From assembly GCF_988242995.1 (NCBI RefSeq), contig NZ_OZ547043.1: a stretch of DNA of 64,000 bases. One strand, 5' to 3'. Under the pieces are notes generated by a model, which did no database searches, was not told the DNA's origin, and saw only the letters and a program-made list of their open reading frames with translations. This document shows, piece by piece, positions 14,198-45,722 of this stretch. Position 1 is the first letter of the stretch, and every line of letters begins with the position of its first letter. Both the position numbers and the translations under genes were made by a program.

Positions 14198-14245
14198 TTT
14201 ACATTGCAGGGCTATTTTTTATAAGATGCATTTGAGATACATCAA
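14198..14245 (+). promoter_or_regulatory. hmp promoter (-35 TTTACA, -10 TATAAG) with overlapping FNR-like box TTGAG-N4-ATCAA inside a longer NsrR-like palindrome
   Basis: Hexamers at 14198-14203 and 14220-14225 (16-bp spacer); TTGAGATACATCAA at 14232-14245 just upstream of the hmp SD. Confidence 0.6.
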
Positions 14246-36257: not shown

Positions 36258-37210
36258 TGCGCTGCCCCGAACTTAATATTCTCGGCAATGCGTTTCGCCG
36301 TTTGCGGCGGCAGTTCACCGACAATGGTGATTTCGGCGTTATCACGTACGCTTGTACTGACGGTTCTGCGCCCGGTGCGCAACATCTGATCGGTGCTCGA
36401 TGGCGTAGCGCGGTTAACGTTTACCGAGAAGCTGAATAATCCGTCGGAATAGAGACGTGATTCGATAGGCATGTTGTCCATCGTCGGTAGCGGACGTCGA
36501 CTACTGGAAACTTCGCTAAAACCCTGTGGCAACCAGGTTGGCGTCCAGCTGAATTTAGCTTTTTCACCTACAGGAACAGAAAGCAACGGCGGCAAATTTG
36601 CCTTCGCCAGCGTCTGCATACTGCTGCTGATATCCTGATTGACATTAAAAGCAATCACGCGAAATTGTTCCAGCGTTTCACCATCGCGATCAAGGAGATC
36701 AACCCGCATCGGTAATTTCGATTCGGTGTCCATCCACACGATGTAGCTGTAGCGTGTACCATCTCGGGCAACCACACGAATGACTTCGCAAAGACGATCA
36801 GCAATACGCGTGCGCCCGACGGAGATAAAGTCGTAGTAAGGAGAAAGGCGTTTGAAATCGGTATAGATGAGCGATGGTAGAGAATCAACAATGTAATCGC
36901 CATTAAGCGTGAACGGTTCAAGTCCCGGTTCAAAATAGCTGATTTCATTGCCGCGCTGTACCACTTCCCGGCGCGGGCCATCCATTTGCAACAATTGTGC
37001 AAGAGGACGGTTATCGAGGCGTGCATGTCGATAACGCAGAGACTCAACACCCTGTTTATTGATGCTGATGAATGACAGCTCGTAATTCAGTGACTGACTG
37101 GCCAGGTTCATCTGCTGTAATAACGCCCCGGACGCGGGAGTGGCCGAGGCGTTAGCAGAGAATAACAGGCTACCTGTCACTAATGACATGGCAAACCAAA
37201 GTTGCTTCAT
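36254..37210 (-). CDS. rseB: periplasmic regulator of sigma-E, RseB
   Basis: 318-aa ORF with signal peptide; start overlaps rseA stop by 1 nt. Confidence 0.92.
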   Translation of the reverse strand: MKQLWFAMSLVTGSLLFSANASATPASGALLQQMNLASQSLNYELSFISINKQGVESLRYRHARLDNRPLAQLLQMDGPRREVVQRGNEISYFEPGLEPFTLNGDYIVDSLPSLIYTDFKRLSPYYDFISVGRTRIADRLCEVIRVVARDGTRYSYIVWMDTESKLPMRVDLLDRDGETLEQFRVIAFNVNQDISSSMQTLAKANLPPLLSVPVGEKAKFSWTPTWLPQGFSEVSSSRRPLPTMDNMPIESRLYSDGLFSFSVNVNRATPSSTDQMLRTGRRTVSTSVRDNAEITIVGELPPQTAKRIAENIKFGAAQ

Positions 37211-43702: not shown

Positions 43703-44290
43703 GTGACACCGACCCTTTTAAGTGCTTTTTGGACTTACACCCTGATTACCGCCATGACGCCAGGACCGAACAATATTCTCGCCCTTAGCTCAGCTACAAC
43801 GCACGGATTTCGTCAAAGTACTCGCGTGCTGGCAGGGATGAGTCTGGGATTTTTAATCGTCATGTTGCTATGCGCGGGAATTTCGTTTTCACTGGCTGTT
43901 ATCGACCCGGCAGCAGTGCATCTGTTGAGTTGGGCGGGGGCGGCATATATTGTCTGGCTGGCGTGGAAAATCGCTACCAGTCCAACAAAGGAAGATGGGC
44001 TTCAGACAAAACCAATCAGTTTTTGGGCCAGCTTTGCTTTGCAGTTTGTGAACGTCAAAATCATTTTGTATGGCATTACAGCACTGTCGACGTTTGTCCT
44101 GCCGCAAACGCAGGCGCTAAGCTGGATAATTGGCGTCAGCGTTTTGCTGGCGATGATTGGGACGTTTGGCAATGTGTGCTGGGCGCTGGCGGGGCACCTG
44201 TTTCAGCGATTGTTTCGCCAGTATGGTCGCCAGTTAAATATCGTGCTCGCGCTGCTGCTGGTCTATTGCGCGGTACGCATTTTCTATTAA
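43703..44290 (+). CDS. eamB: LysE/RhtB-family exporter (cysteine/O-acetylserine efflux)
   Basis: 195-aa polytopic membrane ORF. Confidence 0.88.
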   Translation: MTPTLLSAFWTYTLITAMTPGPNNILALSSATTHGFRQSTRVLAGMSLGFLIVMLLCAGISFSLAVIDPAAVHLLSWAGAAYIVWLAWKIATSPTKEDGLQTKPISFWASFALQFVNVKIILYGITALSTFVLPQTQALSWIIGVSVLLAMIGTFGNVCWALAGHLFQRLFRQYGRQLNIVLALLLVYCAVRIFY

Positions 44291-44324
44291 TGAAAAAAGC
44301 GGAAGAGGTCGCCCTCTTCCGCTT
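44291..44324 (-). terminator. intrinsic terminator of grcA (hairpin shared with eamB 3' end)
   Basis: aagcggaagagg-tcgc-cctcttccgctt stem; on the minus strand it is followed by UUUUUU. Confidence 0.7.
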
Positions 44325-44344: not shown

Positions 44345-44728
44345 TTACAGGCTTTCAGTAAAGGTACGAGCGATAACGTCGCGCTGCTGTTCCGGAGTCA
44401 GAGAGTTAAAGCGAACTGCATAACCGGATACACGGATGGTCAGCTGCGGATATTTTTCCGGATGCTTAACTGCATCTTCCAGAGTTTCACGACGCAGAAC
44501 GTTTACGTTCAGGTGTTGACCACCTTCAACGCGAACTTCTGGTTTCACTTCTACTGGAACTTCACGGTACTCAATGTCACCCAGTTTGCTTACTGCAACC
44601 ACTTCGTCTTCTGCAAAACCTGCTTTCGCAACGATGCAACGCGCTTCGCCTTTTTCGCTGTCCAGCAGCCAGAAAGAGTTCAGCAGATCGTCGTTAGCGG
44701 CTTTAGTAATCTGGATACCTGTAATCAT
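44345..44728 (-). CDS. grcA: autonomous glycyl radical cofactor protein
   Basis: C-terminal glycyl-radical motif RVSGYAVRF; start at [10 protein letters not shown] (127 aa). Confidence 0.92.
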
Positions 44729-44835
44729 GTGATGCCTCCCCGGCAAAATTATTTGATTTGTTCAGCCTGTCGCGGCCAATTGGTAAAACCATTGTTGCTT
44801 GAGTGTATATATACTCCTCAAACACCCTTGAATCT

Positions 44836-44902
44836 TTGATTTAAATCAATAAAAACCATACATCAAGTATGGTCGCAAATGGATTTTATTGTTTTACATC
44901 AA
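44836..44902 (-). promoter_or_regulatory. two FNR-type boxes upstream of grcA
   Basis: TTGATTTAAATCAA at 44836-44849 (perfect TTGAT-N4-ATCAA) and TTGTTTTACATCAA at 44889-44902, centres 53 bp apart. Confidence 0.7.
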
Positions 44903-45032
44903 CTTATACAGGTGTGAAATTTTACCAATTTACATTTTTTTGCACTCGTTTAAGTCTAAATAATGAGCATGATTTTGTTCTGTAGAAAGAAGCAGTTAAG
45001 CTAGGCGGATTGAAGATTCGCGGGAGAGCGAG

Positions 45033-45722
45033 ATGGCAAACGAATTAACCTGGCATGACGTGCTGGCTGAAGAGAAGCAACAACCCTATTTTCTTAATAC
45101 CCTACAGACCGTCGCCAGCGAGCGGCAGTCCGGCGTCACTATCTATCCGCCACAAAAGGATGTCTTTAACGCGTTCCGCTTTACAGAGTTGGGTGACGTT
45201 AAAGTGGTGATTCTCGGCCAGGATCCTTATCACGGACCGGGACAGGCGCATGGTCTGGCATTTTCCGTTCGCCCCGGCATTGCGACACCGCCGTCACTGC
45301 TGAATATGTATAAAGAGCTGGAAAATACTATTCCCGGTTTCACCCGCCCTAATCATGGTTATCTTGAAAGCTGGGCGCGTCAGGGCGTTCTGCTACTCAA
45401 TACTGTGTTGACGGTTCGCGCAGGTCAGGCGCATTCCCACGCCAGTCTCGGCTGGGAGACCTTCACCGATAAAGTCATCAGCCTGATTAACCAGCACCGC
45501 GAAGGCGTGGTGTTTTTGTTGTGGGGCTCACATGCGCAAAAGAAAGGGGCGATTATTGATAAGCAACGCCATCACGTACTGAAAGCGCCGCATCCATCAC
45601 CGCTTTCTGCGCATCGTGGGTTCTTTGGCTGCAACCATTTTGTGCTGGCAAATCAGTGGCTGGAACAACGTGGCGAGAAACCGATTGACTGGATGCCAGT
45701 ATTACCGGCAGAGAGTGAGTAA
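45033..45722 (+). CDS. ung: uracil-DNA glycosylase
   Basis: 229-aa ORF with motifs GQDPYH and HPSPLS. Confidence 0.95.

What the first reader, a model, noticed from the sequence alone, without database searches (positions are those of the whole stretch)
44830..44905. Two FNR-type boxes 53 bp apart upstream of grcA
A perfect TTGAT-N4-ATCAA (44836-44849) and a near-consensus TTGTT-N4-ATCAA (44889-44902) lie upstream of grcA. If the proximal site is centred near -40.5, the distal one falls near -93.5. That architecture allows both activation and dampening by the same anaerobic regulator.
Basis: partly seen in the sequence, partly recalled or inferred. Interest (0 to 1): 0.4.

Follow-up and report, generated by a model that had tools for sequence, protein, structure and literature searches.

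The report
Known dual-FNR-site grcA (yfiD) promoter
The two boxes are real and are the already well-studied pair of binding sites for the oxygen sensor FNR in front of the E. coli grcA (yfiD) gene, where the near site switches the gene on without oxygen and the far site damps it, so this is textbook regulation and not a discovery.

Summary
TTGATTTAAATCAA (44836-44849) matches the FNR consensus perfectly, and TTGTTTTACATCAA (44889-44902) has one mismatch. Their centres are 53 bp apart, upstream of grcA, which lies on the minus strand (CDS 44345-44728).

The window is an E. coli chromosome. From the distal box to the grcA ATG it differs from K-12 MG1655 at one base, in the spacer between the boxes.

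Myers et al. 2013 list these two 14-mers as predicted FNR sites under an FNR ChIP-seq peak. The proximal one has the top score in the part of their table I read. Coordinates in Park et al. 2013 put the TSS at window 44802, which gives -40.5 and -93.5.

New here: in 62 of 81 Enterobacterales and Pasteurellaceae grcA loci, both boxes keep a 52-53 bp spacing (0.2% of shuffles), and the imperfect distal half-site is itself conserved.

Verdict: real, correctly interpreted, already known. Interest is low.

The parts
44836..44849 (-). Proximal FNR box TTGATTTAAATCAA, centred at -40.5 of the grcA promoter (class II activating site)
   Evidence: It matches the consensus perfectly and is identical in K-12. 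Myers 2013 Table S6 lists it at 2714579 with PatSer score 17.25, the highest in the part of the table I read, under an FNR ChIP-seq peak. It is conserved across Enterobacterales, mean 1.70 bits per position.
44889..44902 (-). Distal FNR box, TTGATGTAAAACAA on the grcA-sense strand, centred at -93.5 (down-regulating site)
   Evidence: It has one mismatch. Myers 2013 Table S6 lists it at 2714632 with score 13.87, at the same ChIP peak. The title of Green et al. 1998 names the -93.5 site. The spacing to the proximal box is 53 bp in 56 loci and 52 bp in 6. Mean conservation is 1.66 bits, and the non-consensus A at -90 is itself conserved at 1.4 bits.
44808..44813 (-). -10 element TATATA (-11 to -6); no recognisable -35 hexamer, as expected for a class II activator-dependent promoter
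   Evidence: TATA at -11..-8 is invariant in 56 aligned loci, 2.0 bits per position. The consensus sigma-70 scan finds no -35/-10 pair.
44802..44802 (-). grcA transcription start (+1) as used in the literature; 74-nt 5' UTR
   Evidence: Derived from Park 2013: the ArcA site at 2714524-2714555 is called -10/+22, so +1 is 2714545, which is window 44802. The sigma-70 ChIP-seq peak lies at 2714544/2714546. The base is a T on the transcribed strand, so an error of 1-2 nt cannot be excluded.
44781..44812 (+). ArcA-P binding site (three direct-repeat elements) overlapping the -10 and the start of the transcript
   Evidence: Park et al. 2013 supplementary tables give the sequence TGGTAAAACCATTGTTGCTTGAGTGTATATAT and ArcA ChIP peaks at 2714537/2714570. 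The sequence is identical in the window.
44779..44793 (+). PdhR-like box ATTGGTAAAACCATT at +10..+24
   Evidence: It has one mismatch to ATTGGT-N3-ACCAAT and is the only hit with at most 1 mismatch in the window. That consensus is from my own knowledge. Mean conservation is 1.17 bits. PdhR repression of yfiD is stated in PMC3181329 and PMC10572922, both citing Wyborn 2002. That this box is the site PdhR uses is inferred.
44345..44728 (-). grcA (yfiD) CDS, the autonomous glycyl radical cofactor; Shine-Dalgarno GGAGG at 44735-44739
   Evidence: The ORF is. RefSeq annotation of the 100%-identical record and of K-12 is.
44297..44324 (-). Intrinsic terminator-like hairpin after grcA
   Evidence: A 12-pair stem with 7 G-C pairs and a T-run.
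44854..44874 (-). Palindrome or hairpin between the two FNR boxes (function unknown)
   Evidence: Found by the terminator-like scan. MFE is -10 kcal/mol, z = -3.2. E. coli strains show a paired change, CCATAC/GTATGG versus CCACAC/GTGTGG.
45033..45722 (+). Divergent neighbour ung (uracil-DNA glycosylase), not part of the FNR module
   Evidence: The distance from the distal box to the ung ATG varies from 112 to 300 bp among genera. ung (b2580) does not appear between b2579 and b2669 in the excerpt of Myers' FNR-dependent operon table that I read.

Best explanation
This is the grcA (formerly yfiD) promoter of E. coli. It is a sigma-70, class II FNR-dependent promoter carrying a second, upstream FNR site. 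When oxygen falls, [4Fe-4S]-FNR dimers bind the perfect, high-affinity box centred at -40.5. They recruit RNA polymerase to a promoter that has a -10 (TATATA) but no usable -35. As active FNR rises further under full anaerobiosis, a second dimer fills the weaker box at -93.5. That box is 53 bp upstream, about five helical turns and so on the same face of the DNA, and its occupancy damps the activation. Expression therefore peaks under microaerobic conditions. ArcA-P (site at -10/+22) and PdhR (box at +10..+24) add redox and pyruvate inputs. The product, GrcA, is a spare glycyl-radical domain that repairs oxygen-damaged pyruvate formate-lyase, which fits an expression peak at the aerobic/anaerobic boundary. 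Shown here: the sequences, their positions, identity to K-12, and conservation of both boxes and their spacing. Taken from the literature: FNR occupancy, FNR dependence, the TSS, and down-regulation from -93.5. Inferred: that graded occupancy follows from the conserved weaker distal half-site.
For: The sequence and coordinates are confirmed. The window matches E. coli chromosomes at 100% and the gene is annotated grcA. It differs from K-12 at one base between the distal box and the ATG, outside both boxes. Myers 2013 lists both 14-mers as predicted FNR sites at an FNR ChIP-seq peak (centre 2714607, between the two sites), gives -40.5 for the activating site, and scores yfiD as activated by FNR in 3 of 3 data sets. 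The TSS from Park 2013 (-10/+22 = 2714555..2714524) maps to window 44802, giving -40.5 and -93.5. The sigma-70 ChIP peak falls at 2714544-6. Down-regulation by the upstream site is stated in PMC3445967, PMC11264516 and PMC10208419. In the 2023 study, mutating or deleting the upstream site (yfiD-m, yfiD-P1) gave much stronger anaerobic output than wild type. Phylogenetic footprint: 62 of 81 loci keep the pair at 52-53 bp, against 0.18% of shuffles. The boxes carry 1.66-1.70 bits per position against 0.42-0.79 in the spacers. The SD of the spacing is 0.3 bp, while the box-to-ATG distances have SDs of 11.5 and 29 bp.
Against: Nothing substantial. No experiment was done on this strain. The primary papers (Green 1998, Marshall 2001, Wyborn 2002, Barnard 2003) are not in the held library, so their content comes only through titles and citing papers. 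The implied +1 is a T, which is unusual, so the true start could be off by 1-2 nt. Sigma-70 ChIP occupancy at the yfiD/ung peak was somewhat higher aerobically (323 vs 224), probably because the peak also covers other promoter activity in the shared intergenic region. Park 2013 score ArcA as negative on yfiD, whereas Wyborn 2002 reported a positive effect.
Confidence: 0.95

Rival explanations
1. The distal box belongs to the divergent ung promoter (or to both genes) and is not a damper of grcA.
For: The box lies in a shared 304-bp divergent intergenic region, 137.5 bp from the ung ATG. ung sits divergently next to grcA in 78 of 80 loci, so synteny alone cannot separate the two readings.
Against: The distance from the distal box to the ung ATG ranges from 112 to 300 bp (SD 29), while its distance to the proximal box is fixed at 52-53 bp (SD 0.3). 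ung (b2580) is absent from the excerpt of Myers' FNR-dependent operon list that I read. Citing papers report that removing or mutating this site raises yfiD expression.
Confidence: 0.03
2. Both FNR dimers activate synergistically (a class I plus class II tandem arrangement, as at some CRP promoters), so the distal site boosts grcA and does not damp it.
For: The 53-bp spacing puts both dimers on the same helical face. From my own knowledge, -92/-93 is close to positions where FNR or CRP can act as class I activators at model promoters.
Against: The literature states the opposite for this promoter: upstream-bound FNR suppresses activation (the title of Green 1998). [quoted passage not shown]
Confidence: 0.02
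3. The motifs are chance AT-rich palindromes, or sites for another CRP/FNR-family protein, with no FNR role.
For: The region is AT-rich, and loose matches (up to 1 mismatch) occur about 2.4 times per 64 kb by chance.
Against: A perfect match is expected 0.05 times per window. Both sites lie under an FNR ChIP-seq peak in K-12. Both are deeply conserved with fixed spacing.
Confidence: 0.005

Closest known systems
E. coli K-12 yfiD (grcA) promoter, with FNR sites at -40.5 and -93.5 (Green, Baldwin & Richardson 1998; Marshall et al. 2001; Wyborn et al. 2002)
   Same: It is the same locus. Both 14-mers, their 53-bp spacing, the -10, the TSS region, the ArcA and PdhR-like sites and the 5' UTR are identical.
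   Different: One base differs in the spacer between the boxes (A in the window, G in K-12) and a few differ upstream of the distal box. Nothing suggests a change in function.
Canonical class II FNR-activated promoters with a single site near -41.5 (narG, dmsA, nirB, pykA and others)
   Same: They share a TTGAT-N4-ATCAA box overlapping the -35 position, a weak or absent -35 hexamer, and anaerobic activation (one search lists them with yfiD).
   Different: grcA has a second FNR site upstream that reduces output. describes a second site as otherwise seen only at FNR-repressed promoters.
Other E. coli promoters with tandem FNR boxes about 45-52 bp apart in Myers 2013 Table S6 (cydA 770333/770385; ompW 1311882/1311927)
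   Same: Two predicted FNR sites lie under one ChIP peak, roughly five helical turns apart or a little less.
   Different: These are different genes with different regulatory outcomes. From my own knowledge, cydA is repressed by FNR. They were not analysed here.
Upstream-bound CRP repression at tandem-site promoters (Lee & Busby 2012, PMC3445967)
   Same: An activator of the same family, bound upstream of a class II site, lowers promoter activity.
   Different: The CRP case works through alpha-CTD. That paper states alpha-CTD is not involved at yfiD.

Membership tests
FNR binding site (CRP/FNR-family operator) | Inverted repeat TTGAT-N4-ATCAA | tested here: met
   The proximal box has 0 mismatches and the distal box 1. 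PatSer scores in Myers 2013 are 17.25 and 13.87.
FNR binding site (CRP/FNR-family operator) | Occupied by FNR in vivo | not testable with these tools
   Not measurable here. In K-12, which has identical boxes, an FNR ChIP-seq/ChIP-chip peak centred at 2714607 was called by all four peak callers and by an earlier ChIP-chip study.
Class II FNR-activated promoter | Site centred near -41.5/-40.5 relative to a mapped TSS | tested here: met
   By coordinate arithmetic on published positions. Park 2013 give -10/+22 = 2714555..2714524, so +1 = 2714545 = window 44802 and the box centre 44842.5 is at -40.5. Myers 2013 give -40.5. The TSS itself was not mapped here.
Class II FNR-activated promoter | A -10 element at the right distance and no good -35 | tested here: met
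   TATATA at -11..-6, with TATA invariant in 56 loci. The scan finds no consensus -35/-10 pair.
Class II FNR-activated promoter | FNR- and oxygen-dependent expression | not testable with these tools
   From the literature: activated in 3 of 3 data sets. The aerobic/anaerobic ratio is 0.11; I infer the direction of that ratio from acnB in the same table.
yfiD-type dual-site microaerobic architecture | A second FNR site at -93.5, 53 bp upstream and on the same helical face | tested here: met
   The centres are 53 bp apart. The spacing is 53 bp in 56 related loci and 52 bp in 6.
yfiD-type dual-site microaerobic architecture | The distal site has lower affinity than the proximal one | tested here: inconclusive
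   By sequence only: 1 mismatch against 0, PatSer 13.87 against 17.25, and the non-consensus base is conserved at 1.4 bits. Affinity was not measured.
yfiD-type dual-site microaerobic architecture | Occupancy of the distal site lowers expression | not testable with these tools
   From the literature only.

The most novel reading that the evidence does not exclude
The dual-site layout is an ancient, precisely tuned module. The 53-bp phasing and the deliberately imperfect distal half-site (A, not T, at -90) have been held by selection across several families of Enterobacterales. Pasteurellaceae use an apparently inverted layout: a strong box upstream, a weaker box 42-44 bp downstream, and a near-consensus sigma-70 promoter. 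In addition, a palindrome or hairpin between the boxes in Enterobacteriaceae shows a paired change among E. coli strains and could be an undescribed extra operator or insulator. None of this changes what the finding is.
Probability: 0.25. Interest if true: 0.25.

Novelty: already known. Interest (0 to 1): 0.08.

Why it matters
It adds nothing new about E. coli regulation. The grcA/yfiD promoter is a standard example of one oxygen sensor both activating and limiting a gene so that it peaks at low oxygen, and it has already been used as a part for oxygen-responsive expression in metabolic engineering. What this check adds is confirmation that the first-stage reader located and interpreted the element correctly. 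It also gives a cross-genus footprint showing that the exact spacing and the weak distal half-site are conserved well beyond E. coli.

Tried and rejected
1. The primary papers could not be read: Green 1998, Marshall 2001 and Barnard 2003 (PMC225037) are not held. Wyborn 2002 I did not try to fetch (from memory it is not in PubMed Central). I relied on titles and on what citing papers say.

2. Independent genome-wide TSS tables gave nothing. Thomason 2015 is not held. The supplements of Kim 2012 and Mendoza-Vargas 2009 contain no yfiD/grcA TSS entry or matching coordinates, and some files were truncated when stored. The TSS was instead recovered from Park 2013's -10/+22 annotation and the sigma-70 ChIP peak.

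3. The sigma-70 consensus scan found no promoter here. This is expected for an activator-dependent promoter and does not count against it.

4. I tested whether ung adjacency could separate 'grcA site' from 'ung site'. It cannot, because ung is adjacent in 78 of 80 loci. Distance variance settled the question.

5. I considered that the hairpin between the boxes is a real terminator. I did not pursue it. The signal is moderate (mean z = -1.17), confined to Enterobacteriaceae, and no upstream transcript is known.

6. The PdhR consensus could not be confirmed from the held literature. It is marked as my own knowledge.

Full report
**1. The observation**

The + strand reads TTGATTTAAATCAA at 44836-44849 and TTGTTTTACATCAA at 44889-44902. 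Against the FNR consensus TTGAT-N4-ATCAA, the first is perfect and the second has one mismatch. Their centres (44842.5 and 44895.5) are 53 bp apart.

The perfect box is the only perfect match in the 64-kb window, where dinucleotide shuffles give 0.05. Matches with up to one mismatch number 6, against 2.39 expected.

The gene they precede is on the minus strand, so 'upstream of grcA' means higher coordinates. The grcA CDS is 44345-44728 with its ATG at 44728-44726. ung starts divergently at 45033.

**2. Where the window comes from**

The 801 bp around the site match E. coli chromosomes at up to 100% (for example NZ_CP158426.1) and are found in 5425 of 5426 complete E. coli genomes. The local gene order is srmB-yfiE-eamB-grcA-ung-yfiF-trxC.

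Aligned with K-12 MG1655 (NC_000913.3, grcA at 2716066-2716449), the stretch from the distal box to the grcA ATG differs at a single base. That base lies in the spacer between the boxes. Both boxes, the -10 region and the 5' UTR are identical. Experimental results from K-12 therefore carry over directly.

**3. What is already known**

- grcA is the current name of yfiD.
[quoted passage not shown] I saw both only through reference lists and citing text, because the papers are not held.
- Citing papers say that FNR activates yfiD and that a second, upstream-bound FNR suppresses the activation, without involving alpha-CTD. They also say the extra site is at -93.5.
- Wild-type yfiD promoter activity is higher under microaerobic than under fully anaerobic conditions. 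Variants with the upstream site mutated (yfiD-m) or deleted (yfiD-P1) are much stronger anaerobically.
- Myers et al. 2013 (PMC3688515) Table S6 lists 'TTGATTTAAATCAA' at 2714579 with PatSer score 17.25, the highest in the part of the table I read. It lists 'TTGTTTTACATCAA' at 2714632 with score 13.87. Both are labelled yfiD/ung, lie at an FNR ChIP-seq peak, and overlap IHF ChIP-chip enrichment.
- The FNR peak centre, 2714607, lies between the two site centres. It was called by all four peak callers and by an earlier ChIP-chip study.
- The main table of that paper gives the yfiD site as -40.5, activating. yfiD is FNR-activated in all three expression data sets.

**4. Checking the -40.5 / -93.5 assignment**

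I could not read the primer-extension paper, and two TSS atlases gave nothing. Park et al. 2013 (PMC3798270) provided an independent route. They give an ArcA site at 2714524-2714555 (TGGTAAAACCATTGTTGCTTGAGTGTATATAT) and describe it as -10/+22 relative to the yfiD start.

That fixes +1 at 2714545 in U00096.2. The same 32-mer lies at window 44781-44812, so the offset is 2669743 and +1 is window 44802 on the minus strand. The box centres then fall at -40.5 and -93.5.

The sigma-70 ChIP-seq peak is reported at 2714544 and 2714546. This is consistent, although ChIP resolution is coarser than that. The implied +1 is a T, so an error of 1-2 nt is possible.

**5. Anatomy of the promoter (grcA-sense strand)**

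| Element | Position |
|---|---|
| Distal FNR box TTGATGTAAAACAA | -100..-87 |
| Spacer between boxes (39 bp) | -86..-48 |
| Proximal FNR box | -47..-34 |
| Spacer to -10 (22 bp) | -33..-12 |
| TATATA | -11..-6 |
| +1 | window 44802 |
| PdhR-like box | +10..+24 |
| GGAGG (Shine-Dalgarno) | window 44735-44739 |
| ATG | +75 |

- The consensus sigma-70 scan finds no -35/-10 pair, as expected for a class II activator-dependent promoter.
- The PdhR-like box is ATTGGTAAAACCATT at 44779-44793. It has one mismatch to ATTGGT-N3-ACCAAT and is the only hit with at most one mismatch in the window. That consensus is from my own knowledge.
- PdhR repression and ArcA involvement at yfiD are stated, citing Wyborn et al. 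2002.

**6. New comparative evidence**

One scan of species-representative genomes with GrcA returned 80 loci from Enterobacteriaceae, Erwiniaceae, Yersiniaceae, Pectobacteriaceae, Hafniaceae, Budviciaceae-like taxa, Plesiomonas and Pasteurellaceae.

- In 62 of 81 upstream regions (window included) there is a pair of FNR-like boxes, each with up to 2 mismatches, spaced 53 bp (56 loci) or 52 bp (6 loci). Only 0.18% of dinucleotide-shuffled upstream regions have such a pair.
- The spacing has an SD of 0.3 bp. The distance from the proximal box to the grcA ATG ranges from 109.5 to 159.5 bp (SD 11.5). The distance from the distal box to the ung ATG ranges from 112.5 to 299.5 bp (SD 29). The distal box is therefore tied geometrically to the grcA promoter and not to ung.
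- In an ungapped stack of 56 loci, mean information is 1.66 bits per position for the distal box, 1.70 for the proximal box and 1.70 for TATATA. The flanking and intervening spacers carry 0.42-0.79 bits.
- The non-consensus base of the distal box (A at -90 where the consensus has T) is itself conserved at 1.4 bits. Yersiniaceae and Hafniaceae carry a second conserved deviation (…AACAT). This suggests selection for a weaker distal site, which is what the graded-occupancy model needs. That last step is inference.
- Within E. coli, the 116 bp spanning the boxes is polymorphic: 2488 genomes are only 90-95% identical to the window. In the strains I sampled, the changes fall in the spacers and, in one strain, in the N4 of the proximal box. 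None falls in a half-site.

**7. Mechanism**

The best explanation is the published one. Holo-FNR at -40.5 activates a class II promoter. Holo-FNR at the weaker, in-phase -93.5 site damps that activation when active FNR is abundant. The result is a microaerobic maximum, with ArcA and PdhR adding further inputs.

This fits the role of GrcA as a spare glycyl-radical domain for oxygen-damaged pyruvate formate-lyase. I put confidence at about 0.95.

Rivals:
- The distal box serves ung. The distance variance and the absence of ung from the excerpt of the FNR-dependent list that I read argue against this.
- The two sites activate synergistically. contradict this.
- The motifs are chance matches. Searches exclude this.

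**8. Verdict**

The finding is real, precisely located and correctly interpreted, and it re-describes a promoter characterised since 1998. Novelty: already known. Interest is low (0.08). The most novel reading still open concerns only side observations: deep conservation of the tuned weak site, a different layout in Pasteurellaceae, and an unexplained palindrome between the boxes.

Noticed in passing
window 44854-44874 (minus strand), between the two FNR boxes: A palindrome or terminator-like hairpin, GACCATACTTGATGTATGGTT followed by a T-run (8-bp stem, -10 kcal/mol, z = -3.2). E. coli strains show a paired change (CCATAC/GTATGG in the window, CCACAC/GTGTGG in others, with K-12 intermediate). 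Many Enterobacteriaceae keep ACCAC...GTGGT-TTTTT here, but other families do not (mean z = -1.17; 15 of 62 loci with z < -2). Its function is unknown. It could be an extra operator, related to the IHF ChIP enrichment reported for this region, or chance.
   Followed up: partly
Pasteurellaceae loci, e.g. L046, L049, L053, L054, L056, L061, L067 (about 85-140 bp upstream of grcA): The layout differs from Enterobacterales. A strong FNR box has a second, usually weaker, FNR-like box 42-44 bp downstream of it. That is followed by a near-consensus sigma-70 promoter (TTGACC, about 16 bp, TGaTAAAAT). By my count the boxes would sit near -48 and -92, but no TSS is known.
   Followed up: partly
L050, L065, L071 (Pantoea) and L077 (Plesiomonas): Only one FNR-like box lies upstream of grcA, so the distal site appears to have been lost or never gained in these lineages. 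L059 (Pasteurella bettyae) has no box with 2 or fewer mismatches at all.
   Followed up: no
L083 (E. coli MS 85-1), aligned to window ~44806-44813: A 2-bp (TA) deletion in the TATATATA run that forms the -10 region. This looks like repeat slippage and would shift the sequence downstream of the -10 two bases closer.
   Followed up: no
window 44779-44812: A PdhR-like box (44779-44793, +10..+24) and the ArcA site of Park et al. 2013 (44781-44812, -10/+22) overlap each other and the start of the transcript. Park et al. score ArcA as negative on yfiD, whereas Wyborn et al. 2002 reported a positive effect.
   Followed up: partly
window 14232-14245: TTGAGATACATCAA is an FNR-like box with one mismatch. 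The same 14-mer appears in Myers 2013 Table S6 as the glyA/hmp intergenic site (2683817), predicted but not at a ChIP-seq peak. The hit at 37059 (TTGATGCTGATGAA) is the one that table lists within rseB.
   Followed up: partly
window 43703-44290 (eamB/yfiK), convergent with grcA: In Myers 2013, yfiK (b2578) is scored 'FNR-activated' in one of three expression data sets. It is convergent with the strongly FNR-induced grcA, and the two share one terminator region (44297-44324). The signal may therefore reflect read-through or antisense signal and not regulation of eamB itself.
   Followed up: no
several Enterobacterales loci (L034, L036, L042, L068, L073), 43-44 bp upstream of the distal box: A third, weak FNR-like motif (for example TTGATAATTTACAA, 2 mismatches) recurs 43-44 bp upstream of the distal box in some genera. 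It is absent from the window.
   Followed up: no
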